A stretch of DNA of 64,000 nt from Octopus vulgaris (lineage: Eukaryota). Under the pieces are notes generated by a model, which worked only from the letters and a program-made list of their open reading frames with translations, had not been told where the DNA came from and did no database searches. The position numbers were made by a program, and so were the translations under genes. Where the stretch lies: NCBI GenBank assembly GCA_951406725.2, contig OX597834.1, positions 18,476,001 to 18,540,000 of the forward strand. The letters are read 5' to 3'. This document shows, one piece after another, positions 4,767 through 59,900 of this stretch (position 1 is its first letter; every line of letters starts with the position of its first letter).

Positions 4767-5442
4767 ATGTACCAAAATTTGAAACCAATTATTATATTGT
4801 CAGCAATCTTTTGAGGTCGTGGATGATTTTACACTAGAGTCAACAACTTTTGACCAACACGCACGCATGCCAAGGCGAAGTCTTTTAAGTCCGACCTCAG
4901 GCCGAGCGTTTGTTATTTCACGCGAGATGAGATGCTGCGTTGGTTACTTTATGTTACTTACTATGCTTACATTTATCCTTAAGATATTCCTTTTATGCTG
5001 TTGGCTCTATTGTTGACGATCCGTCTCCACCTGTGTTAGATATTTGTCAATGATTTTCCCTCATACACATTAATACCGCACTTAACTCAAATTTCCTTTA
5101 AGTACGTCTTTAAACCTTTTCCTTTGTGTATCCTCATATGCGTTTTCCTTTATTCAGTCTTTGCAGACGACGGTCTGGCATTCTTACGATACAGTCAGTC
5201 GTCGAAACTGATATCGTGTAATCGTTGTTTTAATGCGGGGAAATATTGGCTCGTTCGGGCACGCGGACATTTTCTTTGCTCTGCCATTGGATGCTCTCAT
5301 GGTTTTGCTGAAATCTCATTTGTGGTATATGTCCAGCTTATGGATATGTTATCTACAACTTGTCCACAGCAACAACCTTATAATACAATAACATTTATTT
5401 GTTTGTATCAGATCATAGTATTCATATACCCATAATGATAAT

Positions 5443-14200: not shown

Positions 14201-17200
14201 CTTTGCACCTGTTACAATTTTGGTCTGTTGCTCTCAGTAGGCTGTCCCATATGTTATGCATTCTTTCTTATGCATCTCCATCTCCTCCTCTTCATTCTCA
14301 TCAAATGCTTCAATTGGGACTTCTCTAAATCTTTGACTGCTTGATAGATCTTTAAACTTCTAGTCTTTCTTTTCCTGTCTGGCTTGTGTCTCTGAGTCCA
14401 TCTAGCTTTAAGAATCATCAGTTTACATTTGCTTTCCATCCTGGCATGTATAACTCCATGAGATTCAATGAATTGGAATGGAATTTTAGTATAGTTTCTG
14501 TGGCTGGTTGCTTTTCTTAATACAAGCCATTTTGGAGAGTGTACTGGGTGTATTTTTTTCATGCCACTAGTAGTATATATATATGTGTGTGTGTTATAGT
14601 GATATGTGTATACACACATACACTAATTTCTGTTTGACCATCAGTCTCAACCAAGAGATGACCTGGACTGATCAACATGAGATCTAATATTTTGTGCATT
14701 CTCTGTTTCAGTTAATTTTGTTTGACTATGATAAAGTAGAGCTGGCCAATATGAACAGGCTATTTTACCAACCTCATCAAGCTGGAATGAGTAAAGTTGA
14801 AGCAGCTGAGAGAACATTGAAGTATGTTATCTTACCTTTTTTTCTTTTCTTACACTCAATTTGCTTGCAAATATCATTTTGCATAACTGTTGTCCTTGTT
14901 TTTGTTGTTATATGGCCACAGTGTCTTTTTATCATTTGCTTTTTCCCTTGTGTTGGAGTAAAGCGAACAAGTCTATAATTAAACAAATTAGTTCAAACCA
15001 TGACTACCCCATCTTATTTCAGGATGAGTGGATCACTAAGTGCATTTTCCTATTTACATTTTAAGACGGTAGGGTGTTGTTTAGAGAAGATTTGGCTGTC
15101 TTTTACTAGTTTGTGTGGGTATACAGAGACTGGCTTAAAGGATCATAGTCAAGGGTAGTAATTATGAAGCATTTGCACTGCTGTTGATTACAGCAATTAA
15201 AAAGTAAAGAAGATATCAGGAACTGTTTGTGAGCTGAACAGACTTGATTATTGTCACATTAAATGTTCTCTCTGTAGTTTTCAATTGTACACAAATTCCC
15301 AGGCACAAGACGAGCAGATTTCATTGCTGGGTGAGATTTGGAAGATGAAATATTGGGAAAGAGAAAGTTGGAGTTATTACAATAATTGACTTGAGATCTG
15401 AGTGATCTGTTAGAATATTTATGACTAGTCTTTTCTGTATAAGTACCTTGTTCTGTCTGTTTGCAGAGAAATCAATCCTGATGTGCAATTTGAAGTCTTT
15501 AATTACAACATTACTACAATGGACAACTTTCAACATTTTATGAACAAAATTAAGTAAGTCTTCTTAAATTTTTAACATGCTATTTGGGTTTTATTATGGA
15601 AGGTAGCATCAAGAGAGTTGCAGGTTAAATGCCTTGCAAGATTTAAAAACGCCATTTTAAATTCTGAGTTCAAATTCCAATAAGGTTAACTTTGCATTTC
15701 AACTCTGTAAGGTCAGTAAAATAAATACCAATCTAATACTAGCATTAATTTAATCACATGTACCTGTCTGAAAAATGCATAGCCATATGTTAAGTTTAAA
15801 CACAGCACATCCATTTAAGGTATTATCTCTTGATGAATACTGTAGTAAATTTGCTTTTTCACAATGTATTTACATTAAGTATGATACACATATGGCTAGT
15901 TTAATCTACTATTGCTTCTGTTGTATTTAATGGATTTTATTCGGCCTGGTGGCTAATTGCAGCACCAGTGATTGTTCATCATTGTTTTTCTGTATTATAG
16001 CAATGGATTTTGTCTTAGCAGTGAGTACATGCTACTAACAAATCTCAACAAGGCAGAAATGTACATCTAGCATCCTCACTGGTGGATGATTTCTGTCTAC
16101 TACTGATATATTTGTGTTTCAAGCACAGTCTATTCATAAGAGATATTATCTCCAGACAAATGCCACAGTAAATTTGCTTTTTCACAATGTATTTACATTA
16201 AATATGATACACAGACAGCTATTTTAATTTACTACTGCTTCTGTTGCATATGACAGAAAGATATATAATAATAATAATAATAATATGAGGGGATATTATT
16301 CCAAACTTACAGGGAAAAATTCAATTTCAACTAAATGAAATTTCACAAAATATAATATATATATATGAATTAGAAAAAACAAACACCTTTTATCAATTCA
16401 ATAAGGAAAAAAAATTATACCATTTAGAAAAATTACATATTATAGAAAGATTAAATATAAGATAAAACATATAACAATGATTAAGTAATGTGCAAAATAG
16501 TAAATAAAACGTATAACACATACACTCATACATTTGTTTACTTTTTACATCAGAACTGGTGGAAAAACTGAAAATTCTCCTGTGGATTTAGTTCTGAGTT
16601 GTGTTGATAATTTTGAAGCAAGAATGGCTATCAATACTGTAAGTATCTTAAAACTATTTGTTAAATTCTTGGGAACTTGAGTTCATAGAATTGCCACCCT
16701 GGGTCTTTAATAAATATTATAATAAATATTTCGTTTTTCATTTGACAGGCTTGTAATGAATTAGGTCAAGTTTGGATAGAGTCTGGAGTAAGTGAAAATG
16801 CTGTGTCTGGACACATTCAGCTTGTCATTCCAGGAGAGACCCCATGCTTTGCTGTAAGTTACTGTAACCCCTTTTTTTTCCATTTCATTATTGTAACATT
16901 CTTTTTAATATCTTTTGTTTTCTGTTTGTGTGTGTGTCTAACTTCAAGAACATTTTATATTCCATCTCTTGATACGCATCTTTTTATGTCCAACTAAAAC
17001 AAAAAAAAATCTTTAATCTCTTTTACATTTTACAGCTATTTAATTTTGGAGAGAAAAAAGACATTGGTACATTTCTACATATAACTCTCAGATGGACTAG
17101 ATTTGATTTTTTTTTAAAATCATGTTTACTTTTGGCAGTTATGAATAAATTAGTCAGTTATGTTTCATTCTGTGAATCTGTATGCACACACGTTCTTGTA

Positions 17201-35519: not shown

Positions 35520-35622
35520 TAGTAATCAGAGAAGTTTTTATTCAGGGTAGATTCGAAAGTGAGGCTAGCTTACAAGTGACTGTTCCAGTGGCATATTTTC
35601 TATGGATCAAAACCGCGAAAAT
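35520..35622 (+). other. Putative non-coding first exon / promoter-proximal region of FAN1
   Basis: Non-repetitive, CpG-containing stretch ending in a strong donor AT|gtaagt, followed by T-rich intron-like sequence; the FAN1 ATG exon has an acceptor and so needs an upstream exon. The 5' boundary is a guess. Confidence 0.4.
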
Positions 35623-38650: not shown

Positions 38651-38709
38651 TTAAATGATGATGATAATGATACACACAATGTTATTTTGAATTCTTAAAT
38701 TTCAGAAGA

Positions 38710-38920
38710 ATGGCTCGTAAAAGCCATAAACTCCCAGCAAAAGAAAGTTCTTCAAATATGGGAAAACAGTGCAGAATTGAGCACTTTTTTAAGAAATCCA
38801 CCGAAAATCACTCTGGAGACAGAAAAGATGTCAACAGTGTTGAAGTTAAAAAGACCTGTAGCTCAGAATCTCCTGTGAATGCCCATAAAAGAAAACGAAA
38901 TCCATCAAATGATTCAGAAG
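38710..38920 (+). CDS. FAN1: FAN1 coding exon 1 (PIP box, basic NLS-like stretch)
   Basis: ttcag acceptor just upstream; MARKSHKLP...[11 protein letters not shown]...[12 protein letters not shown]; donor AG|gtaatg, phase 1, matches the next acceptor. Confidence 0.75.
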
Positions 38921-41900
38921 GTAATGTAGTTTTGCTTTTTTGTTGTTTATTTACAAAAAGAGGGGCAGCACCACCAATGGCCTTTGTAGACCCTTAGAGA
39001 ATTAGTGATTGATGCGGTTGGTGTTTAACTTGAACCTCTCTATGTTACTTTGTTTTGGATAAATGTCAACAAAGAGGATTTCCTGTTTTTGTGTAATGCT
39101 GGTTATATGGGTCAGTCGGATGATGCGATGATGGGAGAAGGAGTTTAGTTGGACACAAAATGTTAGTTCAAAGTAGCATTGGAAGAGACAGAACGAAGAC
39201 GCAGCACATGGGAACCAATGTTTGTAACATGTTGGTGCCAATTAAATGGATAGCCATTTTTGAATGCAGTCTAGTTCATATCTGTGTGTGTGTGTGTGTG
39301 TAGCAGCAGACCTGTTCCAGATGTGTCTGGTGAACTGCATCTGAACTTTGTTGAGAGCTTTTCTTACCAAATATTTTATGGCTGGATTCTCTCAACTGAT
39401 TGAGATTGTTGTCACCTCTCACACTCAATGTCTTCTGCTCTCTCGCTCTCTCTCTCTCACTCACACACACACTGATGTTTTCCATTACTTTCTTTCCTGT
39501 TTTTAACCTCTATATTAGCTTCCAGGTTGAATCAAGTAAGTCTTGGAAGAAGCAGGATAAGTTGGGTTGTTTACCTGTAATATTGGCACTGTGACCATAC
39601 CAACAATAATATATGGCTGTCTTTCTTACCAGCAGTGAATTATAAAATTGATGTAAATGGTATCTCTGTGTTTACACCATAGACAAATATGCTGAGTTGG
39701 CTAGGGAGCCTTTACATGCATTTTTGATCTGCCAGAAATAGCAGCCAGATTTTTTTCAAATCCCACATTTAAATGCCATAGAAAAGACTACATTGCATAA
39801 CACAGTCCTGGATTCCCTGAGTGTATGAAAAAAATAACAGAATGGTTCAGCTGAAATACCTTTCATTGTAGATCTGCTTCAGAGTTGACAAGGGTTTAGG
39901 CAACGATGAATATTTGTGTAGCGATAACATTTTTTGCTTCTGTATTTTTATATATTCTCTTTTTTTTTTCTCTCTCTCTTCTTTTCTCCAGGGATTGAAT
40001 CCTTCTTCAGCAAACAGAATTGTTTGGATACAAAAAGTGAAACATCTAAATCACATGGAAGAACTTCCCTAAAAACTAGACTGTCTTTAAAGAGGAAAAA
40101 GAAAAGAAGTGAGGAACCGAGGGCGAAATTATCTAACGGTGTTATTGAAATAATTGACATAACAGAAAATGGAACGGAAGATTGTTTAACAAATTCATTA
40201 GTTTCAAAGGATCGAATGGAATCTGCAAGTCCTGGTCCAATACCTAATCCATTGTCATTAGATGTTAATGAGAATGATATTGACTTATCAGATAATCACT
40301 TGATATCAAATAAAACTGAAGTTACACCATCAACAACAACAAGAACACAATCATTACAACATGCATTGCCATCAGATGGTGACGACAAACTCTGTGATAA
40401 TGAACTGCAGTCAGTGTCAGAACGAAATATTCTGTCTTCACAAAGTGAAACAAATGAGGCCAGCAGGCTCATGTCGATTAAATCTGAATGAACCAGGAAC
40501 AGACAGGGTTTTGGATTCTGTCATTGTTAAAGAAACAGTGGACTGTACGGGCATAAATTTATCCAGTGAATCAAAATCATCAAAAAATATAAGCAAATGT
40601 CTACTGGCAGAACAAGCAGGTGATAAGCAGCAGGAGCAGAAACAATTAAATTTACCTGATTTTGGAAAACCAGTCTCTTCAGATTCTTCTAGCATTGACT
40701 CATCTCCTGCAGATGGTCTCGAAAGCTCTGTAACTAAATGTAAATCTGATGAATTTCTTGATGAAGGAACAGGATCTCAACCTGAAGAGATGGAAGTTGA
40801 TGGGGATACAGATGTCAAGTTCCGTGTCCCTTATTACCTGGAGAATTTTATGGCAATGATGTCACAGGTGTTAGAAGATGACTATTACAGATCTCTCTTC
40901 AATGAAGATGATATGAAAGTTGTTGAGAAATTTTACAGACTCTCAGGTCAGTTTACAAACTTGGTTTGTTTCTAGAATTAATTAAGGAATGAGATTTTAT
41001 AGAATTAAGGAGAGAGAGAGTCTATAGAATTAATTAAAGATTCTATAGAATTAAGGATAGAGGTTCTATAAAATTAATTAATGAGAGAGTATCTGTAGAA
41101 TTAAGAGATTCTATAGAATTAATGAGAGATTCTATAGAATTAAGAAAAGATTCTATAGAATTAAGCAGAGAATATATAGTATTTAAAGATTCCTAAGAAT
41201 TAAGGTGAGATTCTATAGAATTGAAGATAGAAGGTATAGAATTAATTAAGGTTTAATGTGTAAGCCCCAAGCACATGTATGAAGATAATTGGGAAAATAA
41301 CATTTTAAAGATGGAATTTTTTGCTTCTGACAGAGGTTGCCCAGAAACTGTATGTACGGATGTTTTCACGCAAGTTGATGTGGAGAATGCAGATAAAGAT
41401 AAAGTACCCAGAGATTGCTGAAGACCTTTCTGGGTTTATAAATGAATTAATCGAAGCTGGTTTGGCCCACTCAGGTGAGAGTTTCAGAAAATTATCTTAT
41501 TGCATTTTCTCTTTCTTCTTATTGTTCTTGTATATAAGTATTTGTCTTAGTGGTTAGGATGTTGGGCTTACAATCATAACGCTGTGTGTTTGGTTCCTTG
41601 ACTGGGCGATATGTTGTGTCCTTGAGCAAGAGTACTTCCTTTCATGTTACTACAGTCTACTCAGCTGTAAATGAGTATCAACCCAATACTGGTGAAGCTT
41701 TTTCTTCCCCCAGATGCTTGTCATATCCTCAATGTTCCCCTGTGTCAAGAATGGGAGAGTTGAGAGCGTGTCTGTTTATGACTACATGGGCACCCAAATC
41801 AAGGAATGAAAGCATGTCTCACGGCTGTTTAGGTAACTGAGTTTCGCTGAAGATAGAATCTTTATAGAATTGAAGTGGGTTTTTCTTTGTCTTCTTCAAG

Positions 41901-44900
41901 ATTTCTGAAAGAAGAAATAATTAACAAAATACTCGACAGTTGTACAGTGATTCTTGTAAAAGGCCAGAAATTTGAGAAGAGAATTTAGTTGATTACATCA
42001 AACACGTTTGACTGGAACATTATTTTATCAATCCTGAAAGATTAAAAGCAAAGTTGGCCCTACCAAGATTTGAATTCAGAGCAACAAGAACCACAAGAAA
42101 TACCTCAAAGCATTGTGATTGACACTCTAATGAATTGGCCAGTTCTCTTAAGTAATAATGAAGATGATAATAATTTTATTAATTGGCACAAGGTCTGAAA
42201 TTTTGGGCTTTCTTTATTAGCCAATTTCATTAATCCCCTGTGCTTGACTAGCAATTATTTTATTGATCCTGAAAGGATGAAAGGCAAAGTCAACCTCTGT
42301 GGCATTTGAACTCAGAATGTAAAAGATGGAAGAAATATCGAAATGCCTTTTGTTGGTATGCTAACAATTTTACTAGTTCTAGATTCTACCAACAATTTGC
42401 TGCCTTAATGATACCAACGATAGCAACCCTTTCTTCTGTATGCATTGGGCCTGGAATCTTGGAGGAGTTGGGTAGATGATTACATTGACTCCAATGATTC
42501 ATTGGTATTTATTTCATCGACTTTGAAAGGATGAAAGGCAAAGTTGACCTTGGTGGAATTTCAACTCAGAACATAAAGATGGACAATATGCCACTAAGCA
42601 TTGTGTCCACTGTGGTGATTATTCAGCCAGCTCACCTCCTTAACAACACCAACAACTAATAATAATAATAATAATAATAGCAGCAGCAGCACATATTGTC
42701 TGCCCATTTGTATAATAATAATGTTTATAACTTTTGTTCCAGCCTGTAAATTTGGAAGTAGAAATATAATTGATTTAATCAGTCCCTAATTCTTCATTGA
42801 TATCTCTTTCATTGATCTTAGAGGAATGAAAGACGAAGTTAGCATAGGCAGGATTTGAATTCAGAACAAAAAAAAAAATAGTCAGAATAGTGCAAAGCCT
42901 TTCCTATGACCCTCTGCATTTCAACTTTTAACAAACTGTATCATTTTGTTCTTGTCCGTTATAGTAGCATCTATTTCATTTTCAGAACAAGACCTGACCG
43001 ACCTGGAGGAGACACTACACCTCTTGTCTTCTGCAGATTTGAGAACAGTTGCCAAGTCGTTTTACCATAATTGTTCCAACCAGACCAAGGTACAAATAGT
43101 CGACCTTTTACTGAAGCACTGCAAACAAAAGTCTGTCAGATCTCTCTTTGAACCAAATGGATTGCAAACTGTGGAGAAATCAATGATGAATCGGTAACAC
43201 TTTTGTTTTATTGTAATGGGAAAAGTGGCGGTGGGGGGGATATAAAGGTTTTTATTTACATTGAAGCAGGGGCTGTGACTTTTACAGATCCTCTGAGATT
43301 GGCTTAGCTAATGTTTTTTTATGAAGTTTATTGCTGCAGGAAAATCATGTGCAGGGAGGAGATTCCAGAGGGATGATATTCAGGGGAGGGAGGATATGGT
43401 GCAGTTGTTACTGTAAGTCCTAGGAAGGGAACACAGTATGGGTGACAAGTGGAGGAGAGATGAATAATTGGAGAATGTCTGAGTGAAGGGGACATTTGAC
43501 CAGTCATATAGTTAATTTGTTTTTACTTGTGCTTATCCAAACTAACATGGGTTAGATGAATATATTATTGAGGCATTGTTTTACAACCACATGCCCTTCC
43601 TGTTGCTAACCTTTACTCGTTTTTCAAATCAGAGATATCTGAAGTCTTGGTAGAAAAGCTAGAGAGAAGAGGCAGCATGTCTGTGGACCAGCTGTTGGTG
43701 TGTTAGAGTTAAAGTTAATTTTTTGGCTCAAAAAGCAAAAAGCAAGGCCATGTAGGGGGACATGGAGTTATGTACAGGGAGATTGTTCATGCAAAGAGTT
43801 CAGGCCATTTCTGGTCAAGAGAGACTTTGAACTGAGCGGTTGTCGGCATCTTCACTATCTCAGCTTATTCCACGGATCTGCAACCCAGACAGAGAAAGCT
43901 CCTCTCCTTCGATTGAGATGAAATCGTCGCAGATAGAGCTTTTCGGAGTGACCCCGCAGCCGACGCTCTGGAGCAGGAGTGAAGAACAGCTCTTTCGAGA
44001 GGTTACACTTTCCGCGGTGAATGAGTTGATAACAGCTAACTGGGTGGCCTTTCTGTCTAATTCCTAAAGAAATAGCAGTCAAATCACCCTCGACCATCTT
44101 TGAAAAAATAATTTACGCCTGAGAAAAGAACACACTGGAATGTCTGTCTTATAAGTCTATTGTTCCAGACTTAGGTCTGTTGGTCTAACGCCATCAACAA
44201 TGACAACATTGAAAGTTGAAATTTCTGTAACCATTTCTCGGATTATTTCATAAATTCTAATTGATGTTTATTTGATTTGTTACAGTGCCAAAAAACTTCT
44301 TGGAGCTTGCTTTAAGTTAGTGGAATCTCATCGCTCTGTCTTTGTACGTTTGCTAACTCTGTTCTCATTGTGTGTGAACTCTATGGATGATGAAACTGGT
44401 GGTGCAATTTCTGCACAATTGTAAGTTGCTAATTTTCATATTGCTCTTGTTATTATTATTGAAGTTGAGGCCCAGTGGTTAGGGCAGCGGACTTGCGGTC
44501 GGAGGATCGCGGTTTCGATTCCTAGACTGGGCGTTGTGTGTGTTTATTGAGCGAAAACACCTAAAAGCTCCACAAGGCTCTGGTAGGGGGTGGTGGTGAC
44601 CCCTGTTGTACTCTTTCGCCACAACTTTCTCTCACTCTCTCTTCCTGTTTCTTGAGTAAGGTGGAGGCACAATGGCTCAGTGGTTAGGGCAGCGGACTCG
44701 CGGTCAGAGGATCACGGTTTCAATCCCCATACTGGGTGTTGTGTGTGTTTATTGAGCGAAAACACCTGAAAGCTTCACGAGGCTCTGGTGGAGGGCGGGG
44801 TTAACCCTGTTGTACTCTTTCGCCACAACTTTCTCTCACCCTCTCTTCCTGTTTCTTGAATAACACTGCAATGGACTGGCGTCCAGTCCAGCTTGGGGAA

Positions 44901-47900
44901 ACTCATACGCCACAGAAACCGGGAAACCAGGCCCATGAGCCTGGCTAGGCTTGAAAAGGATGACATTTATCATTATTATTATTGGTGAGCTGGCAGAGAT
45001 GCTGACATGTCAGCCAAAATGCTTAGCGACATTTCATCTGTCTTTACATTCTGAGTTCAGATTCTGCCTTTCATCCTTTTGTGGTCAATGAAATAAGTAC
45101 CAGTTGAGCACTGGGGGGGTCGATGTAATCGACTAGTTCCCCCTTCCCCAAAATTTCAGGCCTTCCTTGAGCCTTTAGTAGAAAGGCTTCTTATTCTTTT
45201 ATTATAAAGCAGTGAGCTGCAGAATCTTTAGCATGCCAGGCAAAATGCTTTGCATCATTTTGTCCATCTTTACATTCAAATTCTGCCAAGGTTGACTTTG
45301 CCTTTCATCCCTTCAAGCTTGGTGAAATAAGTACAAGTTGGACACTGGAGTCAATGTAATTGACTTACCTGCCCCCACTCCAAATTGCTGGCTTTGTGCC
45401 AAAATTCGAAAGTATTATTAAAATACTTTGCAGTATTTGTTCCAGCTCCTATTCTGTGTTCAAATCCTGCTGAGATCACATTTGCCTTTTATCCCTACAA
45501 GGATAAATTGCTGGCTTTTGTGTCTTTATTAAATTTGTAAATAATACATCATTATTATTAAATTTGTATGTATATATGTATATGTATATATCTACGTGGG
45601 AAGATGTATGTTTCTGTTGGTGTTGGGAATTATGTTGTTTTTTTAGGCAGCGTTTAAGAAAGTTTATTCGGCATCCGATTTTAGCACATTTCTCTGATGG
45701 CTTGATTAACTCCCTAGCAGTTGCCAACTCAGCCTGGCCCAAGCGTAGAGATAGGAGAGTATTGTAATTCGTTTGAAACACTGTGTATTGTTTGTAAAAA
45801 AATAATGTGTTTTGAATGGCACAACAATGCAATTTAATAATAACAACAATGGACTATAATAACTGTTTGAACCATGTCTCAAGCTCATGTGTGTTGGCAC
45901 ATGCGTAGTGCTGCTTCAAACAATACACAATGCTTTGAGCGAACTACAATACTCCCCTATCTCTACTCCTGATCCAGAAATGAACTTGCACACATCCAAA
46001 GCAAGTGTAGTAGGACAGAGGACAAGGTGGCCCACACTACATGCTTCCTACAAATATTGAAAACAAACAGGTACCCTATATCCATTGTAAATTGGCTTGA
46101 GTATCCAAGACGACCAACACGCCGAAAACCCAGAAAACCCAGCAACACATACAACTAGCCTACTCTGGCCCCTCTCTGAGAAGACACCTCACAAAGAAAC
46201 GAGCAAGGGACAGCAATCAATACACACTAGCAAATAGTCCCATTTATGACAAGGATTTATGCCAACGGGTAAATGTTAACTCATTGTTGCTGCCACATGG
46301 CCATATCACCTGTTAGAATATTTACTCAAGTTCTAAATTTTCAGGTTTCAGATGCTGCAAGTAAACATTGGTCGTGTTGTGTTCCCCAGTTATAAAATTC
46401 ACAGACAGACAGAAATCTTCCAATCAAGAAATGACTTAATCAGGTAAAAAAAACCCAAAAATCTTATTACTACTCTTGTTTACATATTTTTGCTTCTAAT
46501 TCTTTTCAGTTAAGTCAGAGTAGGGAAGGGCAGTGCCTGTGACCCTTTTAAAATGGGATAATTGTCATCACATGTGCATGTTCCATTACTGGTATGGGTT
46601 GGACAGTTCGACAGGCTCCCATGGTCCCGAAGACTGCATCATGCTCCAATGCCTGTTTTGGCATGATTTCTACAGTTGGCTCAGAAACCTGGATGTTATC
46701 AAAGAAGCTTGAGAGGCGGTTGGATGGAACCTACACTCGCCTCCTTATGAGGGCTTAAAATCTCTTGTGGAAGCGTCATCCAACCAAAATGCAAATATAT
46801 GGGAAACTACCACCTGTGTCATCACTTGTGAAAGGTAGGAGAGTCCAGTTTGCTGGACATTGTTGTAGAGCTGAAAACAAGGCAATTTCAACTCTTCTCC
46901 TCTCAAAGCCATCTACTCGCAATACCAGAGGGCGCACACTCTCCTACCCTGATGTAATCTCCAGGGATACAGGCATCCAGCAACAGGACCTCCATAATGC
47001 TATGATGGACCGTGAAGTCTGGCGTAGCATGGTAAATTCCATTGTCTCAACCACGGTCGAACAATGATGATGATGACAGTTGGATGCCCTTCATAATGCC
47101 AACCAATTTACAGAGTGTCCTGGGTGCTGTTTTGTGTTGCTAGCACTAGTGAGGCCATTTAGTTTTGCAATGCTATGAATCCTGAGGTGGATGGGGGGGT
47201 GGGGTGGAGGAGCTGCATGACTACTCTCGTTTTAGAAAAGAGGGTTGGAGGGATTGAGTGAACAGTGATGAGGGAGGGTGTGGGAGATGACTGACCCTGT
47301 TGAGCAATAGAACAGTCATGATGAAACTGATGTTCATTAGAAATTGGTGTTACTCAGCTGAAAGAGGTATGGGATTCTCTGATGAATGCACAAAATATGC
47401 ATAACTAACTACTGTTTTGACTATTACATAAAATTTAGTGAAACCTGACTGGATTATGATTTAGATATTTTGATTAGTACAGGCTTCCATACTTTACAAA
47501 ACCAACAAAGTAATGGGTTATATGAAACAAACAAGTAACTACTGTCTTGGCTATTACATAAAATCTAGTAAAACTAAACTGGGTTACAACTGGGACATTT
47601 TGGTTTGTGCAGGCCTCCATACTTTACTACCCTGCTTCCACTAAATCTGTGTATTCTTCTGGTATTTTCCTAGATATGGTGATGCTATTCAACTGGACAG
47701 TGAGATGGTTTCCAGAATGGAGAAGAAGGATTTGTCTGGTGCCTATGAAGTCTACCTCAAAGCCAAAATGCTCTACGATGAAAACAAAAAGGACAAAAGA
47801 ATAAAAATGTAAGTTTTCTTTGAAAACTAATTTTTTTCTCTCTCTCTTTAAACTTGTGTGTGTGTGTTTGTTTGCATTTGTCATCATCATCATCATCATC

Positions 47901-50900
47901 ATCATCATCTGGTCAGGCTTGCTCAGACAAATGTCTTTCAATTGCTACTTTCTTGTCTATGGTCACAGGTCCTATGGACAATTGCGGTGCCAGTCAAACT
48001 GATGAATTTCCCAGACCAAGATTCTTAAGAGTGTAATTTGTTCTCAGAAGTTGGAAGAAATCCAAAGACAAAGTATTTTTTATGCTTTGCTTCTTTATTT
48101 GAGACTGTAGGATATAATTTGTAGGAGATTTGCTTGCTATTTCTAGCATATCAAGCAACCCTATAAAGGCTCCCTCATTGGATCAAAGTTATGCTATATA
48201 TGGATGAATAAATGTGTTAGTTATATATATTTCTTTACTACCCACAAGGGGCTAAACATAGAGGGGACAAACAAGGACAGACAAAGGTATTAAGTTGATT
48301 ACATCGACCCCAGTGCGAAACTGGTACTTTATTTATCGACCCTGAAAGGATGAAAGACAAAGTGGACCGCAGCAGAATTTGAACTCAGAACGTAACGGCA
48401 GACGAAATACCGCTAAGCATTTCGCCCGGTGCACTATTGTTTCTGCCAGCTTGGTAAAAGATAGCTGAGTTGATTAGATGTTGAATAACTAAATTAAGTG
48501 GTCAGCATTTTATGTTCTGCCCCTGGCATTGGATTTAGGAACCACTGGCTGAGATGGTCCATTTAACTGGAAGAAAGTTCTGCTGACTAGCAAAATCTAC
48601 TTCATTTCAAGTAGTTACTCCAGGATGATGATATAGTTCAGTGACAAACAACCTTCTTCAAATGGTGGCCTCAAAAATTCATGAGCAAAACTTCAAGGAC
48701 CCCCCAAATATAAATTTACTTTTAATTATGTTAAGGCGATGAGCTGGCAAAATTGTTAGCACATTGGAGAAAATGCTTAGTGGAATTTCTTCCGGTTCTG
48801 AGTTCAGATCCTGCTGAGGTTGACTCTCATTTATCCCTTGGGGCCAATAGAATAAGTACCAGTTAAGTACTGGGTTTTATGTAATTGATTTCCTGCCTCC
48901 CCTCAAATTTGCTGGCCTTGTGCCAAAATTAGAAGGACTTGTGTAACAAAACAATCATCATCATCATCATTGCTTTCATCATCAGCTTTCCATGCCAGCA
49001 TGGGTGGGACGGTTTGACAGGCAGAAGCCTGCATCAGAGAGGACAGACAAACGGATTAAGTCGATTATATCGACCCCAGTGTGTTACTGGTACTTATTTA
49101 ATCGACCCCGAAAGGATGAAAGGCAAAGTCGACCTCAGCGGAATTTGAACTCAGAATGAAGCGGCAGACAAAACACCGCTCAGCATTTCGCCCGGCATGC
49201 TAACGTTGCTGCCAGCTCGCCGCCTTCCTAACACCAGCCACTCAGCAGAGTGGACTTAGTGCTTTTCACATGGCACAAGCACAGGCAAAGTCAAAGAAAT
49301 TAATCAAACATTATATAATTAAATACATGTAAATTTACTTATAATTGATTAAGATTTTAGATTGTCTTGTGTAAAAAATAGTGACATCTTAGGCCTTATA
49401 ATTGCACTTAAAGACCACTATAACTTTGGTTTGGAACACTTGTGGTCTGTCTGGGTCTTGATGAGCATTACTGGTATAGTCCATTTAGTGATAAGTAGGT
49501 ACCATAGGATAGTAGCATAGTCTAGTCAAAAGTAGCTGTAGAATGGTACAGTCCTCTTAGCAATGAATTGTTACAGCAGAGTGGTATAGTCCATTAAGTA
49601 GGTACCATAGGATAGTTGTAGAGTTCATTTATGGATAATTATGTACTGTAGAATGGTATAGTCCACTTAGCTGTAAGTAGGTACCCAAGATCTACTTAGG
49701 TACCCATGATCTACTTAGCAATAAGTAGATACCACAGGAGGGTGGCATAGTACACCCAGGTAAAAACTCATTAATGCTGTTGCTATCATGCTATCTTTTG
49801 TTATTTTTGTTTGTTTAGGTGGGACAAGAAACTACCCCTATTTCTGAGACATTGTACCACTGGGTATGTTTGTTCCCATATCCTCTTCCAAGGGGTTGAA
49901 TTGCTTCAAAGACAAAGGAACTACAAAGAAGCTATTGTGATATTAGAGGAGTTACTGTCCCAGGACTTATATGGCTGCAGCCACAGAGGTCGTTGGTATG
50001 ATCGATTGGCCTTGAACTTGGACCAACATTTGCGGTCACCAGGCAAGGTAGAGCAATTAGTCTTGTTCTTTTGAAAACAAAGTTTCCATGTTTTCCCTTT
50101 CAGCTACCCTACACCTCCCCTCTTTTCCTTTCCTTTTCTCCCCCTCTCCTTTCCCTCCCTCTCTCCTTCCCCCTTCTCCTCCTGCTTGATCTGGACTGAC
50201 TTAGTGGTGGTGGTGGTGGGAGTTGAACAGTAACAAGGAGAAAACTCATGACATAAAAAAGGCACCCGAGGAGCAATGCATACCCTGGGCACAGATAAAT
50301 TTTTTCTCAAATTATAGTGTGGCTTGCCACGTGTTGCTTATCCACACGTTTTAATTGAACTGAATTAAGCTTTGTAAGTGTTTGACTAAAAGAGGATTAG
50401 AAGCCGAAATAGATGACAGCTAAAAGTAGACTTGATCGATGTCTACACCAAACACATGAGTAAAATTTGCATATGACTAAATAAATGATTGTTCAAATAA
50501 TATTCATGATTATGAAAAAGAAAGTGAACAAAATGAAATACTTATAGAAAATGTGGCATAGAATTTCAGAAGTGTTTTCAGCATCTTTCAATGATGGCAA
50601 GCGAATCAAACATACTGTAGTTCGTTGTAAGATATATTGGGTTATCCCATAAATAATGCAGTCTTTTCAGTTCCATGAACTAAAAGTCGGAGGGAGACAG
50701 GATAAATTGCCTGCATCAACATGCTATAAAAGCAGGCCGTAAGTTTATCTTGTCCTAATTGTTAGTGCAAGTTTTGAAGAGTGCAGTTCGATTTTAACAT
50801 ATTTTTCCAAAGCTATAATGGAAGTGACAAAGGAGCATATTTGGCATATTTTGCTTTATGAGTTCAATAAAGGCAACAACACAATGGAAAGTGCGAGGAA

Positions 50901-53900
50901 TGTTAATGTAGTATATGGGGATCGGACAATAAGCGTAAGCCAGTGTCAACAGTGGTTTCAGAAATTCTGAGCCGGAAACTACAGCTTAGAAGCTGAGCCA
51001 TGTCCTGGAAGATCTGTAGAGCTTGATAAGGACATCCTGCAAACCCTGGTGTAGCAAAATCCCATCGTAACTGTTCAGGAACTAACAGAGAAGCTTGGAT
51101 TTGGTCATTCAACCATTCATTGACACCTGCATGCCATTGTAAAAGTCAGCAAATTGGGTCAATGGGTTCCTCACAGACTTTGCGAGTCTAATCGTGTGCA
51201 CAGAGTGAATGTTGTAGGTGTTGTTGTCAAACTGTGAACACCCAGGACCAAAGCTGCATAATGTCACATTTGATGCTCTACTGATTCCACCAGTCTACTT
51301 TCTTGCATTTGTATTTTATTGACTCTGAAAGGATGAAAGGCAAAGCTGACCTCATTCGAGGCAGCAGCTGACTGGATGTGACTGGGAGTGGGATGAAGGG
51401 TCTCCAGAGGCTCAGCATCAGCTTGGAGGACGCAGAGGGACTGGTATGGGACTATCAGTGATGGAGAGCACTGATGGACCTGGTTGGCTCTACACATGAT
51501 GACCTCAGGGTCCCACTAAGCAAGCAAGAGTTTGAAACACCAGGTAACTTCCATCTGATGATCCAATGCCTGTTCACCATATATAATATGTGTGTGTGTG
51601 TGTGTGTGTTTGTGTAAGTGTGTGTTTGCATGCATATATGCACATGTATGTGTGTTTATAGGTTAAAATTTATTAATTTTCTTTTTGTTATTGTTTTATT
51701 TCCAGGCTCTGGACATAATAGAAAAAGGTCTGAAGGACTCTTTGGTTTCTGTTGGCCATAGATATTCTTTATATTTAAGAGCAGAAAAAATTTGCAAAGA
51801 TTCCAAATCTCGCTGGCACAAAAGATTAAAGAAACTCAAACATGAACCTGTTGTCGAAGCTCCTAAGGTATGTTTCACACCTTTACAGCTGAATGAATTT
51901 TTCTATTTTACCAATTACAGGTACAACACTAACTGATGGTTCAGAACCTCTTATAGTTTACACTAATTTACCCTGATACCTGTATTTCAATTAATTCTTT
52001 TCATAAATTTAATATATGTTTAATTTAAGGTGGTCATGCTGGGTGAAATGCTTTATAGCATTTCGTCCATTCTGAGTTCAAATTCTGCTGGGGTTGGATT
52101 TACCTTTCATCCTTTCAGGGTCGGTAAAATAAGTACCAGTTGAGTGCTGGAGTTAATTTAATTGACTTTAGCCCCTCCCCACCAAACTACTGGCCTTGTG
52201 AGTGCTGACCAGGGTGACTACCATGTTTTAGAAAAACCAGTTAGCCTGAGAGACTTGATCTCAAAGGTTCCAGAAAATTAATTACCTTAATTAATATATT
52301 CGTTTTGTTTGTTTTAATTTTGATTTCTTTATAGGGTAATCTAAATGGATGTAACAGAGTAATATAAATGGATGCCTAGTTTTATATCTTGCTATTTTTA
52401 GTTCAATTCTTACAGAATTTAACACTGCCTACCATCCTCCTGGGATCAATATTAATTGTAATACACTAAGGTCAGCAGTATTGTGTCTATATTGTATTTG
52501 CTGAAGAACTGTGAAGTTGGTTACAGGTTCCTTAATGAACCAGTTTTTCATTGATTCACTGCATTAAAGGGGGTCAGTTTGTGCAGCTTGGACAACAAAT
52601 TCCACTCTCTTTCTCTCTATGCACACACACATATGATGGGCTTCTCTGTTTCCATCCACCAGAGTCACTTGCAAGGTCTTGGTTAGCCTAGGTCTATAAT
52701 AGAAGACTTACCCAAGTTGCCTTGCAGTGGGACTGAACCCTAAATGATGTACTTGGGAAGCAAACCTCATAACCACACAACCATGCCTTCAAAGAGGGAA
52801 AAATAAATGTCAAACAGTGAAGATAAATGAAAATAACAAAATAACATGAACTGCTTATTGAGATGTTGTGAACTGAATGCTTAATTTTAGAAATAATAAA
52901 CTGGTGTATTTATTTAATATTTCAGGTATTCATCACTGGTAAAACATTAGAATGTGGTTTACCTGGTGTCAGGTATCAGTTTATTACTAATAATTACGAT
53001 GCAACAGATGGTACTTCCTCTGAAGATGTAGTAATGTGTCCTGTTGAAATTCTTGTTCTTAATCATTACAAGAACAATGGCTATCCACAAGGTAAGAAAC
53101 TTAATGCTAACACAGGATCTTGTCCTCACTTGGTAAATCAATCAATCAACCTTTGACTTGGTTGAGCAACCAATCCCAACCAGTTGGGATTCACATTATG
53201 GGTTCGGCTATTCATCCTCTCGATTGCTGGATGCAAAACGTAGCTTGCAAAAACCTCCATCACTGGAGGTTCCATTTACATCTTGCAAAACCCTCTGTCA
53301 CAAGGTTATCCATTTACTGCTGAATGGACTGTGCAATGTGAAAGGAAGTGTTTTGCTCAATAACACAACACATAACCGGTGTGGGGAGGGAAACCGTGAT
53401 CTTGCGATCACGAGTGCAACACCCTAACCTATTTCTTTATTACCCACAAGAGGCTAAATACAGAGGGGACAAACAAGGACAGACATAGGTATTAAGTCGA
53501 TTACATCGACCCCAGTGCGCAACTGGTACTTAATTCATCGACCCCAAAAGGATGAAAGGCAAAGTCGACCTCGGCGGAATTTGAATGCACAACGTAACGC
53601 AGACGAAATACCGCTAAGCATTTCGCCCGGCGTGCTAACGTTTCTGCCAGCTCGCCACAATACCCTAACCACTAGGCCATGCACCTTGATAAAACTGCCC
53701 AATGATGCAGATGGAATTTAGGGGATTCTTGTCAACAAATTTGGTTTCTTTACTTCTGATGTTGTGAGAGATTTAGTTGTTAAATTGTGTAGGTCAAGTG
53801 TTAATGAAGATATTATTTAATTAAATGTCATGTTGATTAATTTCACGTCGTTTGTCTTGTGTTGCAGGTCTTCATGCTGAAGGTTCCATCATGCATTTCC

Positions 53901-56900
53901 TTTTTGCTCTGTTCTTCTTCGATATCCTTTACATGGACCTACCCGATGTCTTCATTAGTCCCTTTCAAGCATGTCCCCTCGACATGGCGTCTCCTGACTT
54001 CTATTTAAACAGAAAAGAAGCAATCGATGAGCGTTTGAAATTCATCTCCACTGCATCTCTACAGGTGAGGCTTTGTGCGTGTGTGTGCGTATATATTTAC
54101 CGTAAATCCTCGAGTATAGTCCGCCCTTGAGTATAATACGCAGGGGATTTTTAGGGGGCTGTACCTCTGAAAAACCTAAACCTTGTGTATAATACGCACC
54201 CTTTCTCTAACTTGAGTCGTGCGTACATTCTTCCTGTCAGTTGTGAGAAATTAAAGTCAATCACTTGACTACCTGAACAGAAATATTCATCAATCCTATT
54301 CACTTTTCTTACTTATTGATCCTATTCACAGAAATATTCATCAATCCTATTCACTTTTCTTACATTCTTTCTCACTATCTATAATGTGTGTGTGCAGATA
54401 TAATAATTGAAGATGACCTGAGACGCATGCTCAGTGTCTCTTTATGCATTAAATTATCAAATTATCCAATTTTTCTTTCTTGAAAAAGCAAAAAATATGA
54501 AAACGTTCAGAGTTGTCTCCCTTGCTTCCATATCCCAGAGATAATGTCGGATAACCTTACAGTATTTTCTCCTAATGGCTATCTTCAACCCTGCTGTGAT
54601 AATTTGTGATGCTGTACCCACCTAGGTCACACATATGACCAAAGGCATTCCAGCTATGACTACCCTGACTTTTTCTTACGTTTGGGGAACCAAGACCACG
54701 TTTATGCAGCGTACCCTTTGCTGGCTGAGTGATTAGAAGGACATTTTGCTGCTGTTTGTTGCAAGTCTTACAATCATGTAGAGACCTCAGTTGTTTAAAG
54801 TACAGGAGTGGGTTGGACCACCTAGGGTCACTCATTGCTATTGCTTAGTTTTAGCTGCGCAGCTCACCTTATACAACAGGAGGTGGTGGTGGTGCACATT
54901 TCACATCATACAACACTAATACTATCAAGGGACAGCATGAACACCACAACGTCCTCTTCTGAACTAAACATCTTAGGCACCATGCCTCTTTTGGAAAAGG
55001 CAACTGATAAGCAGTTATATCTTTCAAGATACCAAAATATCGGTAGCAAGCAAAATAATAGGAATTAATGTAAGAACATGTTTTCGTGTTGAACATAGAG
55101 CATTTACATCTTTCCACAGAGATGCCCGGTTGAGTAAGTGGGTATTGTGATGAGCATGGAAGCCATGGGTGGATGTAAACCTGAGTGAAGGTTTTGGTGG
55201 TAGTAGCAAATATTCGAACTGGAAACCTGCTATGTATGGTGGGTACAGATTGACTTGAGCACTGCAAATTGCTATGGACCCAGATTTTAAAGCTATTGTT
55301 TAGCTACATTGAATTCATCTTAGATTCTTTTAATACACCTTGTGTCATGTATAACATCCATCCATCCATATGTATCATCATCATCATCGTTTAATGTCTG
55401 CTTTCCATTCTGGATGCTCTCCCAAACGCCAACCACTTCACAGTGTGGACTAGATGCTTTTTACATGGCATGGATTGCATTGTTAGAAATGAACTGACAA
55501 GCCAGATGTCTTTGCCAAGCTCCAATGCCAGCCACTTCACAGAGGGTACTGGGTGCTTTTTCATGGCACCAGTACTAATGAGTTTACTAGGTACTTGTAA
55601 GACAAGGCTCTTCATATTGAGGGATATGAAAGTATGTGAGGGGTGGGGAATAAGAGCAGGTATCTTGTTGAAGGTGAATACATGGCTTCTCCACCTGGAG
55701 AGAGAGAGATACAAGGTACTTGGTGAATATGAAGAGAGATTAGAATAGGGAACAAAAGTTGTGGGTAGATTGGTAAGTGCTTTAGAGTGAAAAGTGTGAA
55801 TAATGATTAGAGATAGGAATTTAGTTGGATGCAGTGAATATCAGTTTGAGGGAGAGGAAGTGAAGGAAGGAAATAGAGGTGGGTCGGGGGGAGGCAGTGA
55901 CAAGGGACAGTAGTTGGGATATGGATACACTGTGGTGTAAGGCTAGACAGGGCCTCATTTTTTTGAGGTGGAAGTGTCTTCTTTAGTACAGTGTATCACC
56001 AATCATCTCAACCATGATTTGTTAAATTGTTCAATCATTTTGTGTTTCTTCTTGCAGGAACTAAACGAGCAAATAGCAAAAGTGTGGGAAGACAATTATG
56101 GCTGCCTGTTTGCAGGTGGCAAGTGGGAGATGTTTAATTCACTTTCCGAATTGCAGGTTTGTTTACATTTGTTACCATAGAAACAACTGAAACTGTTTTG
56201 TCATTCTTCTCTCTCGCTTCCACTTCATCTCTTTCTATTTCCATTCTTTTACTTAAGGAGACACAACAATCAGAAGAAATCATTAATATGTGTGCTAACA
56301 ATGGAGTCACTAAATGTGTTAGAGATAGCAGCAACTTCTCCCTACTATCACATTATGCTATCATCAAAAACAGAACACATTGCATAGTGTAGTCCTAGGG
56401 AAACTTATTCTCTGTTCAATTCCTGTGCATAATTCTATTTACTGTTCAGGCATTTTCTCATGAATTGTAGTGCACCTGAGTGTTGTATGTAATAACTTCA
56501 TTATAATAATAATAATTATTATTATTGTGGCAGCGAGCTGGCAGAATTGTTAGCGTGCTGGACAAAATGCTTAGTAGCGTTTTGCCCATCGCTATGTTCT
56601 GAGTTCAAATTCCACTGAGGTTGACTTTGTCTTTCATCCTTCTGGGGTCAAATAAAATAAGCACCAGTTGAACACTAGGGTTTGATGTAATCGACTCATC
56701 CCCTCCCCCAAAATTGCTGCCCTTGTGGCAAAACACGAATCCATTATTATTATTCATGATGTCTGAAGAACAAAAGACAAACGCTGAATGGTAGCCACTA
56801 AAGCACAAAGTCAGCTCAACCATTTTCAACCATGGGCTACAAACAATGTTTTATATTGCTGTTATTGTTTAGCCCTTGGTCAGTCTTGACTGCTCAAAAG

Positions 56901-59900
56901 CATTCTAGCAATGACTATCCGATCCTTCTCTCAGACATTGTGTATCTAGGGCTGCTTTATCCTATGTGTCCCTTCCTTTTCAAGGCTGCAGGGTGCATTT
57001 GGAAGACTTGGTTCTTATTTCTAACATGCTGAATGACTTCATATTAGTTTCCTCATTGTCTTCAATATTGTTGGAAGTATGGTAGATTGGCAGAGATGTT
57101 GGGTTGCTAGGCTAAATAGTTAAATGTAGTTTGGTTTCAAACCTCTACATTCTGCGTTCAAATTGTGCCCTTGTCTTTCATCCCTCCAGATTTGATAAAA
57201 TAACTACCTGTTGTTCATCCACCTGAAATTCACGGCCTAAAGCTTATGCATGAAAATCCTTATGTATCAATAGTTGTGACTGTGTAGTAAGAAGTTTGCT
57301 TTCCGGCCACATAGTTTTGGGTTCAGTCCCACTAGATGGCACTTTGAACCAGTTTCTTCCTCTATAATCCTAGGCTGGCCAAAGCCTTGTGACTGGATTT
57401 GGTTGATGGAAACTCAAAGAAGCCCATTGTGTGTAAATGTATAGTGGCACTAATTACCTGGTGTTTGAACTCAGTATACACTGTCATGGTTGGAATATCT
57501 TTGATCATGGACATACTTGATCAGGGCTGACCTGGGGTTAAACAACCTTTCCTACCACGACTTGCTAGAAATATTGTCCAGATGTCCCCTGATTCACATT
57601 CTACTTTCTTAAAAAAAAAGGACACCTTACATATTGTTGTCCAATGTAGAGTACACAATGCCTGGGAAAGAAAAGATGGGGTGGTCATATTTGTGCCATC
57701 TTTGTTCATAAGCTTGCTTAATCAGTGCTAACACCCTCCTGCCGCTCATTATCCCTTCTTTGTTTCACTGTCAAACTCTGCTTTATAAAAACTCTCCCTC
57801 ATCTTTTCTACCTGTACACAGGTGTGAAAAATATTTTGTTTCTTTATTTATTTCTATTTTAATTAATTCATTGTTTTTTTTCATTTAATACTAGGGTTTG
57901 GTTAGTTGTATGGAAGGTAAGATTCTGGCAGGAATCTTTGGAAGGTATGCCAAAAATCCACGTCACACTCGAAGTGGGTTTCCTGATTTAACACTCTGGA
58001 ATGTAAACACAAAGAAATTCAAGGTTTGTTGCATTTTTATAACTTCTCTTTCTATACTTTATCCTGTATACACTCACTCTACATCTCCTTTATACACCCT
58101 CCCTTAATAGTTTAATCTCATACAATCACGGTATTTGATAATAAACTGTGTCTGTGTTCTTTAGTTTTGCTTGAACTAAATCAGGGAGATTCAGCTTGAC
58201 ACAGAATGTGACGAGGCTGGCCCCTTTGAATTACAGGTACCAATCATTTTTGCCAGCTGGGTGGACTGGAGCAAATATACGTTGTTCAAGGACAACTTGC
58301 TGTTGGGAACTGAAAGGAATTGAACTCATCACCTTGAACCGAATAACCTAACCACTAAACCATCTGCCTTTGACCACTGACAAATAAGTAATCTGCAGTG
58401 CAGCTTAATCTCATTTATTCCTGATTATAAAGAGGAAGTTCTTTATTTCTGTTGTGTGTTGTATGGCATCTTGGTTGGTCTTTGACTGGTTCTGGTATCA
58501 TATCAGTTTTTCTATGAGAAGGGGTTGCTTGCCCCAACACTTTGTCCTTCATTTCTGAGGAAAGGGACATTGTAAATAGTCTCCTTATAACCCTTCTCAC
58601 AGCACAACAAATCAGATTCCCACAGAGAAAGTGAGAGAGTATTGACACCAGTACACAACTGGTATTTATTTGTTGACATGCGAAGGATGTAAAGCAAAGT
58701 TGACTTTGGCAGGATTTGAACTCAGCACAGAGAAATTTGAAACAAATACCACAAGGCATTCTGTCTGATGCTCTACCCACTCAGTTTATTAGTTTGAAGA
58801 CATTGAACTAAGTTTTTTGGATTGAAAGAGAAAGAGAAAACTAAAATCTAAAGCTCTTTTGTATTAGTGTTAGTAAATAATTGTATTAAAATGTTGAGAG
58901 GACATGCGACGTATGTGATTGAATACACGCAATTTATATAAAATAAAATCTCTCATTCATGCAAGAATGGGAAAATTGATATTAAATGATGATGATGATG
59001 GTCGTGGTTGGAATGCCTTTCATCATGAGTCTACTCAATCAGTCTCACTTGGGCTAAAAACAACAACTGTACATTTTATTGTTTCTCTTTTAACAATATT
59101 GATCTCCATTAAATTGGATATTTATGTTCCCATTAACTGTTCTATAGCAATCTATTGAACAGTCAGACTTCATTGATTTCATTCTGTTTGATCTCTTTCA
59201 TTGTTTTCTAACTTTGATATTTCATAGATTTTTTTTTCTATGTTATTGTTAAACTATTCCATCATCATTTAACGTCTGCTTTCCATGCTGGCATGGGTTG
59301 GATGATTTGACTGAGGATTGGCGAAGATGGCTGCACCAGGCCCCAATCTGATCTGGCAGAGTTTCTACAGCTGGATGCCCTTCCTAACACCAACCACTCC
59401 GAGAGTGTAGTGGGTGCTTTTATGTGCCACTGGCAACAGCCATGCTTAAGTGGTGTTTTTTACGTGCCACCTGCACAGGAGCCAGTCCAGCGGCACTGGT
59501 AATGACCTTGCTCAAGTGTTTTTCATGTGCCACCAGCACAACTGCCAGTAAGGCGATGCTGGTAACGATCACGTTTGAATGGTGCTTTTTATGTGCCACC
59601 AGCACAGAAGCCAAAACCTTGTACACCTTATATCTAGTTTAGCGTTCTAATTTTTGTTTAATTTGGAGTTCTGATAATATTCTTGGAAAAGCAAGAATGC
59701 TGCAACTTGTTTTTCCTTCTCAGTTTTGCTAGCTGAGGACTGCAGCAGCAAGAAGAAATAAAGTGTCTTGCTCAAGGACACATGCTGCCAAGAATTGAAC
59801 TCACGACCTCGAGCCATCTATCCCAACCTCTTAGCCACACACACCTTCAAACAAATGAGATAAAAGAGAATGCGTGTAGTTCCTAGTGGGAACTGAACCC

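What the first reader, a model, noticed from the sequence alone, without database searches (positions are those of the whole stretch)
40304..40491. FAN1 has a single frame break sitting on a +1 shifty-stop-like site (AAA TCT GAA TGA ACC)
Seen: exon 2 is 955 nt but is entered and left in phase 1, so it is 1 nt too long (or 2 too short). Frame A ends SIKSE* at TGA 40489-40491. Frame B is open from 40304 and carries the conserved PYYLENF core. Skipping T40489 gives ...KSE-EPGTDR..., and amino-acid composition suggests the switch is at this point. All 13 downstream exons, including the PD and ExK catalytic motifs, are intact, so the gene is not decayed. Inference, in order of likelihood: (a) an assembly indel, e.g. 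GAAAAT collapsed to GAAT; (b) a segregating loss-of-function allele; (c) an unseen small intron or downstream start (e.g. MEVDG at ~40790); (d) programmed +1 frameshifting at a stop, as in antizyme (UCC-UGA) or Euplotes, giving a 236-aa PIP/NLS peptide plus full FAN1. FAN1 is an established modifier of microsatellite expansion, which would make (b)-(d) notable in so microsatellite-rich a genome.
Basis: partly seen in the sequence, partly recalled or inferred. Interest (0 to 1): 0.72.

Follow-up and report, generated by a model that had tools for sequence, protein, structure and literature searches.

The report
Octopus FAN1 frameshift: one stray base
The octopus DNA-repair gene FAN1 is broken in this assembly by one extra letter that lies 24 bases before the proposed "slippery stop" and is missing from every public data set that covers the spot, so it is likely an assembly error in an ordinary gene rather than a new way of reading genes.

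Summary
Coding exon 2 (39992-40946, 955 nt) is 1 nt too long, and the assembled gene stops at TGA 40489-91 after 236 aa. Eight public runs were laid. All 7 that cover the site (6 studies) lack one base at 40465 and show no indel at the TGA. The O. bimaculoides orthologue independently places the switch at 40465-68; the proposed skip at 40489 ranks 59 of 180. Without the extra base the gene gives a 1002-aa FAN1, and the TGA is an out-of-frame triplet across Asn-Glu codons. Spliced contigs cross the exon with no extra intron. Exact antizyme-type TCC-TGA triplets occur twice by chance further down this intact gene. Programmed frameshifting and a hidden intron are rejected. An assembly error is most likely (~0.8). 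A rare null allele remains possible (~0.17), because no listed run carries the window's haplotype. One earlier, unchecked scan note reports a similar run-absent frameshift elsewhere in this genome. Side finding: the molluscan FAN1 proteins examined lack the UBZ finger, and the cephalopod-type ones carry a canonical PIP box.

The parts
38710..38920 (+). FAN1 coding exon 1 (ATG 38710; acceptor at 38706, so a 5' exon lies upstream)
   Evidence: tblastn 93% to O. bimaculoides P0002 1-71; spliced contigs of X1, X2, X13 join it to exon 2 (table 8)
38767..38790 (+). canonical PIP-box-like motif QCRIEHFF (residues 20-27); PCNA binding predicted, untested
   Evidence: pattern Q-x-x-[ILMV]-x-x-[FY]-[FY] (consensus recalled) found in the window and in 6 of 6 cephalopod-type homologues
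39992..40946 (+). FAN1 coding exon 2, 955 nt in the window; one base shorter in all covering runs
   Evidence: boundaries; one base left out at 40465
40090..40107 (+). basic cluster KRKKKR, NLS-like by eye, untested
   Evidence: translation; similar cluster in P0002
40465..40467 (+). the actual frame break: one surplus base (A40465 against the runs, or one of GG 40466-67)
   Evidence: 7 of 7 covering runs lack a base at 40465; skips at 40465-68 give the top four scores against P0002
40459..40459 (+). window-private G (all 7 covering runs read A), 6 nt from the break
40489..40491 (+). TGA: first out-of-frame stop after the surplus base; in the intact frame it straddles Asn and Glu codons; not a recoding site
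   Evidence: no indel here in any run
40410..40566 (+). 157-nt GT..AG 'intron' used by public model P0004 to bridge the break; not seen in spliced contigs
   Evidence: splicing it out reproduces P0004 exactly; X1, X2, X3, X13 contigs cross it unbroken
41334..62552 (+). 13 downstream coding exons (41334-41474, 42986-43193, 44286-44420, 46345-46443, 47674-47808, 49819-50047, 51706-51867, 52926-53091, 53868-54064, 56058-56156, 57895-58023, 61605-61710, 62515-62552): rest of HTH, then SAP, TPR and VRR-NUC domains; PD motif in exon 13, EVK in exon 14
   Evidence: model; Pfam on P0004, whose last 666 residues equal the window's; human FAN1 structures, E 4e-144

Best explanation
The window's FAN1 exon 2 carries one surplus base at 40465-40467 that all seven covering public runs and the O. 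bimaculoides orthologue lack, and this base is most likely a consensus (assembly or polishing) error in an ordinary single-copy FAN1 gene. Without it the gene encodes a 1002-aa structure-specific DNA-repair nuclease (disordered N-terminus with a PIP-like box, then HTH, SAP, TPR, VRR-NUC), translated normally. The TGA is merely the first out-of-frame stop after the error. Shown: site of the surplus base, intact frame in runs and orthologue, no intron in spliced contigs. Inferred: that the base is an error rather than a private allele. One inferred route: the window's A-G-G at 40465-67 is the union of two alternative alleles at a CpG site (G-G in the runs, A-G after a CpG transition), or a doubled G, as a consensus over a heterozygous site would give.
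For:: X12, X15, X19 each lack one base at 40465 (X9 had no cover). X1, X2, X3, X13 likewise, at depths 3 to 99. That makes 7 of 7 covering runs of 8 laid, from 6 studies and 3 organism labels. P0002 follows frame A up to SETN and frame B from [10 protein letters not shown], eight codons before the TGA; of 180 single-base skips that restore a full ORF, 40465-68 score best (4838-4839) and 40489 ranks 59th (4796); the restored protein is 935 of 1000 identical to P0002. No other decay: 13 intact exons, 660 of 666 identical to P0006. Single copy in G000. Frameshift errors in genes of long-read assemblies are routine: under 3% of genes even after improved polishing, and polishing at heterozygous sites is a recognised trouble spot (10.1101/2021.07.16.452324, passages).
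Against: No listed run carries the window's haplotype, so the individual's own reads were not tested. The top word share is 0.83, as expected for the common haplotype (0.823), whereas the window's haplotype with only the break removed would give about 0.96. The window has other private letters (40277, 40343, 40459). At 40277 its Asp matches O. bimaculoides, and at 40696 and 40731 it shares letters with X19, so it likely represents a real, rarer haplotype that could carry a real insertion. The site is not a long homopolymer. Two of the seven contigs have depth under 5. The A-allele needed for the 'merged heterozygote' route was not seen in any laid run.
Confidence: 0.8

Rival explanations
1. 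A real, rare loss-of-function allele: the assembled individual carried a 1-nt insertion at 40465-67 on a divergent haplotype. The mRNA would stop after 236 codons with 13 junctions downstream, so it would likely be destroyed by nonsense-mediated decay, with at most traces of a PIP/NLS-bearing fragment; in a heterozygote it would likely be recessive.
For: The window's haplotype is not among the 20 listed holders (top share 0.83) and carries letters that match the outgroup or X19, so it is likely genuine and was not sampled. The premature stop ends at CDS nt 711, and the last junction is at 2972. FAN1 deficiency in people causes disease but is compatible with life (PMC7990447, abstract and passages).
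Against: Absent from 7 of 7 covering runs. No second lesion or excess change in the downstream 666 codons. Consensus indels are a priori more frequent per gene than null alleles (inference and general knowledge).
Confidence: 0.17
2. A hidden intron (40410-40566, as in public model P0004) or a downstream start (ATG in frame B as in P0001, or MEVDG as in O. sinensis P0006) gives a functional FAN1 despite the extra base.
For: Public models exist for each. The 157-nt stretch has GT..AG ends and restores the frame.
Against: P0001 and P0004 carry the window's private residues and are reproduced from it, so they are not independent. Four spliced-type contigs cross 40410-40566 unbroken. In those alleles, removing 157 nt would itself break the frame. 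The orthologue P0002 keeps the whole stretch. Contigs drop rare forms, so a minor isoform is not excluded.
Confidence: 0.02
3. Programmed +1 ribosomal frameshifting at GAA-UGA (antizyme- or Euplotes-like) gives a 236-aa peptide plus full FAN1.
For: Only the sequence look: a UGA with an open +1 frame behind it.
Against: The break is not fixed in the species: 7 of 7 covering runs are in frame, and the TGA is out of frame there. The orthologue has no stop. The P-site codon GAA is not among the antizyme sites in the passages read (UCC, CCC, GCG, CCG, UUU, AUU, GUU; PMC1874602), and it matches the +1 codon at only 1 of 3 positions. Euplotes stops are UAA/UAG, with UGA read as Cys (PMC4759687, abstract and introduction). 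Better-looking sites arise by chance in the same gene. A shift at 40489 would put eight wrong-frame residues in place of the conserved SCRLNLN.
Confidence: 0.005

Closest known systems
Metazoan FAN1 (Fanconi-associated nuclease 1; human structures such as PDB 9cma, 4ry3; O. bimaculoides XP_014768704.1 = P0002)
   Same: HTH, SAP, TPR and VRR-NUC domains in the same order; PD and EVK catalytic motifs align with human FAN1, E 4e-144; 93.5% identical to P0002 once the surplus base is skipped.
   Different: The window copy has one surplus base in exon 2. No UBZ zinc-finger pattern in 0 of 6 cephalopod-type and 0 of 26 other molluscan homologues, against 18 of 18 vertebrate ones; a canonical PIP box instead of the non-canonical human one.
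Consensus indel errors in long-read animal assemblies (as measured in the Merfin preprint, 10.1101/2021.07.16.452324)
   Same: A single-base indel in an otherwise intact, conserved gene; absent from independent reads; annotation works round it with a false intron or a downstream start (P0004, P0001).
   Different: Not in a long homopolymer; not checked against the source individual's own reads.
Antizyme +1 shifty stop (UCC-UGA) and Euplotes +1 frameshifting
   Same: Superficially, a stop codon closing ORF1 with an overlapping +1 ORF2.
   Different: Not conserved, not fixed in the species, wrong P-site codon, and the true frame switch lies 8 codons upstream of the stop.

Membership tests
FAN1 nuclease family | HTH, SAP, TPR and VRR-NUC domains in order | tested here: met
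   Pfam PF21315, PF21169, PF21170, PF08774, all above the curated cut-off on P0004, whose last 666 aa equal the window's
FAN1 nuclease family | PD-(D/E)xK catalytic residues | tested here: met
   GFPDL and EVK align with human LPDL and EVK
FAN1 nuclease family | N-terminal UBZ zinc finger (vertebrate FAN1; not universal in the family) | tested here: not met
   no CxxC in the N-terminus of P0002, P0003, P0004; UBZ pattern in 0 of 32 molluscan and 18 of 18 vertebrate homologues
FAN1 nuclease family | structure-specific nuclease activity | not testable with these tools
   needs an assay
Programmed +1 frameshift (antizyme type) | two-ORF arrangement fixed in the species and conserved in orthologues | tested here: not met
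   7 of 7 covering runs and O. bimaculoides are single-ORF
Programmed +1 frameshift (antizyme type) | shift site at the codon 5' of the stop, of a known shift-prone type | tested here: not met
   the codon is GAA; the frame switch maps to 40465-68, not 40489
Programmed +1 frameshift (antizyme type) | 3' stimulatory structure and measured frameshifting | not tested
   not folded or measured; moot once the site proved absent from the runs
Programmed +1 frameshift (Euplotes type) | shift at UAA/UAG stops in a code where UGA is sense | tested here: not met
   the stop here is UGA (PMC4759687 abstract and introduction)
Assembly consensus error | absent from independent reads of the species and from orthologues | tested here: met
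Assembly consensus error | absent from the assembled individual's own reads | not testable with these tools
   no listed run carries the window's haplotype

The most novel reading that the evidence does not exclude
A wild octopus carried a genuine FAN1 null allele (1-nt insertion at 40465-67) on a rare, divergent haplotype: a natural loss of a repeat-stabilising nuclease segregating in a repeat-rich animal genome, with which repeat instability could be compared between carriers and non-carriers.
Probability: 0.17. Interest if true: 0.3.

Novelty: not a real feature. Interest (0 to 1): 0.07.

Why it matters
Practical only. The public O. vulgaris models that match this window (P0001, 807 aa, wrong N-terminus; P0004, 934 aa, unsupported intron) are work-arounds of one base, and the real protein is likely about 1002 aa. 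It is also a caution for this scan: any +1 indel ends at a stop with an open +1 frame, so a 'shifty stop' found that way carries no information until the switch point is mapped by reads or an orthologue. If the base were a real allele, it would be a natural FAN1 null in an invertebrate, of modest interest for repeat-instability work.

Tried and rejected
Run X9 (labelled a holder, share 0.78) gave no contig over the site; a filter leaves records out, so this says nothing. No listed holder is on record as RNA; the RNA nature of X1, X2, X13 is read from their spliced contigs. The tool's joint table was empty, so the exon 1-exon 2 join is read from adjoining record coordinates in table 8, and exon 2-exon 3 from the loose ends behind 40946 (X1, X2, X13 shown). 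A search of G000 for a second copy or alternative haplotype found one match only. A search for a separate N-terminal FAN1 piece of 30-549 aa, to explain the short O. sinensis model, found only an unnamed exon-1 read-through fragment, P0008. A paper search for 'FAN1' with 'octopus' returned 3 unrelated conference proceedings (listing only); most subscription papers are not in that library. A scan-note search for 'FAN1 nuclease octopus cephalopod' returned nothing. Rejected: a collapse at the TGA (no indel there in any run); a pseudogene (no other lesion); the P0004 intron; programmed frameshifting. No structure prediction or RNA folding was run, because neither bears on a base that is absent from the reads. 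No supplements were consulted.

Full report
1. Observation. The window holds a 15-coding-exon FAN1 gene on the + strand, 38710-62552, all introns GT..AG. Exon 1 is 211 nt. Exon 2 is 39992-40946 (955 nt) and is entered and left in phase 1, so it is 1 nt too long. As assembled, translation stops at TGA 40489-91 after 236 aa. Frame B is open from 40304 and holds PYYLENF. From the Met at 40790 the model gives 666 aa without a break, 660 of 666 identical to O. sinensis P0006. Pfam finds HTH, SAP, TPR and VRR-NUC above cut-off, and the catalytic motifs align with human FAN1. The exon has one match in G000.

2. Where the break is. One search listed 20 runs that hold the exon (9 studies). I laid 8 of them. 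In one search, X12, X15 and X19 each have a contig across the site, and each lacks one base at 40465; X9 gave no cover. In one search, X1, X2, X3 and X13 show the same single gap. So 7 of 7 covering runs, of 8 laid, from 6 studies and 3 organism labels, lack the base. All 7 also read A where the window has G at 40459. None shows an indel at 40486-40491. Two contigs have depth under 5 (X1, X15); the other five have depth 10-99. Independently, O. bimaculoides FAN1 (P0002, 1001 aa) follows frame A as far as SETN and frame B from [10 protein letters not shown]. Scoring every single-base skip between 40304 and 40491 against P0002, 180 restore a full ORF. With the base skipped, the protein is 1002 aa and 935 of 1000 identical to P0002. 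In that frame the TGA straddles Asn and Glu codons.

3. The 'shifty stop' is chance. After any 1-nt insertion, translation ends at the next out-of-frame stop, and skipping one base there restores the frame by construction. The downstream 666 codons hold 40 such stops, 26 of them TGA. Two are exact antizyme-type TCC-TGA (53995, 57984) and two are AAA-TGA. The window's site has GAA before the stop, which is not among the antizyme sites named in the passages of PMC1874602 that I read. Euplotes uses UAA and UAG as stops and reads UGA as cysteine (PMC4759687, abstract and introduction).

4. Hidden intron or downstream start. Two public O. vulgaris models match the window letter for letter. P0001 starts at an ATG in frame B and includes the wrong-frame stretch. 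P0004 is reproduced exactly by removing a 157-nt GT..AG stretch, 40410-40566. They are work-arounds of the same sequence, not independent evidence. In one search, contigs of X1, X2 and X13 join exon 1 directly to exon 2 (adjoining record coordinates) and continue into exon 3 (loose ends behind 40946). These three and X3 cross 40410-40566 unbroken. Contigs drop rare forms, so only the main form is shown. The O. sinensis model (P0006) starts at MEVDG. I could not see its DNA. A break at the same base would offer upstream frame-B ATGs, as P0001 uses, so its cause is probably different (inference).

5. Error or allele. This is the open part. The top word share among holders is 0.83, matching the 0.823 computed for the common haplotype; a run with the window's haplotype would reach about 0.96 or more. 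The window has private letters at 40277, 40343 and 40459. At 40277 its residue matches O. bimaculoides, and at 40696 and 40731 it shares letters with X19. It is therefore likely a real but rarer haplotype whose own reads were not tested. For an error: no other lesion in the gene; absence from every covering run; the known frequency of frameshift errors in long-read assemblies and the known trouble at heterozygous sites (10.1101/2021.07.16.452324, passages). Also, the window's A-G-G at 40465-67 equals the union of the runs' G-G and the A-G that a CpG transition would give (inference; that allele was not seen). For an allele: the site is no long homopolymer, and FAN1 loss is survivable in people (PMC7990447, abstract and passages). 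If real, the stop lies 13 junctions upstream of the last one and would likely trigger nonsense-mediated decay. My odds: error 0.80, rare null allele 0.17, cryptic splice or start 0.02, programmed frameshift 0.005. Two earlier AI notes on this genome (e1-9943601, e1-8821724) also ascribe frameshifts to the assembly. I did not check them and do not count them as support.

6. Comparison with what is known. The gene is an ordinary FAN1 orthologue. FAN1 as a modifier of repeat expansion, acting with PCNA, is established (PMC7990447 and PMC10438374, abstracts and passages), but nothing here links this base to the genome's microsatellites. One side result: among homologues, a UBZ pattern is present in 18 of 18 named vertebrate proteins and in 0 of 26 named non-cephalopod molluscs and 0 of 6 cephalopod-type proteins. 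I grouped 50 of the 104 hits, and two of the six are unnamed and placed by similarity. A strict canonical PIP box occurs in 6 of 6 cephalopod-type proteins and 0 of 26 other molluscs, which have a relaxed PIP-like motif in 25 of 26. The review read says the UBZ is well conserved in multicellular eukaryotes, so molluscs look like an exception; I did not search the literature for this.

7. Verdict. The recoding idea is refuted and the frame break is most likely an artefact. Novelty: not a real feature. Interest 0.07.

Noticed in passing
window 38710-40790 and homologues P0002-P0109: The molluscan FAN1 proteins examined lack the UBZ zinc-finger pattern (0 of 32, against 18 of 18 vertebrates), although a review calls it well conserved in multicellular eukaryotes. 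All 6 cephalopod-type proteins have a strict canonical PIP box near the N-terminus; so do 9 more of the 104 hits, mostly crustaceans where named. Other molluscs have a relaxed motif (25 of 26). Pattern matching only.
   Followed up: partly
window 40277, 40343, 40459, 40465: Four window-private differences cluster within 190 nt of exon 2, while exon 1 matches three runs without a difference; either a divergent haplotype block or a locally poor consensus.
   Followed up: partly
P0006 (O. sinensis FAN1 model): Starts at MEVDG and lacks the whole N-terminal third; the cause (gap, separate indel or isoform) could not be seen.
   Followed up: partly
window 40312-40435, run X19: Two alleles in one run, one with an in-frame 6-nt deletion in the Thr-coding ACA repeat at 40338; the disordered part of exon 2 is highly polymorphic.
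   Followed up: no
window ~35600-35622 and 38706-38721: A candidate 5' exon ends at a GTAAGT donor at 35623. If it is spliced to the acceptor at 38706, an ATG near 35602 would form a short out-of-frame upstream ORF overlapping the FAN1 start. No RNA evidence for this join was obtained.
   Followed up: no
window 61605-61740: Public model P0001 reads through the exon 14 donor at 61710 to end [10 protein letters not shown]; the conserved end ([11 protein letters not shown]) is in exon 15 at 62515.
   Followed up: partly
window 14688-14830: Exon of a ThiF-family gene on the + strand (Pfam PF00899, E 7e-7); looks like UBA5 by recall, not tested.
   Followed up: no
window 40975-41260: Degenerate short-unit minisatellite in intron 2, just behind the exon 2 donor (seen by eye).
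   Followed up: no
window 39724-39770: Short intronic repeat matched by several unrelated contigs in all four runs; probably a dispersed element.
   Followed up: no
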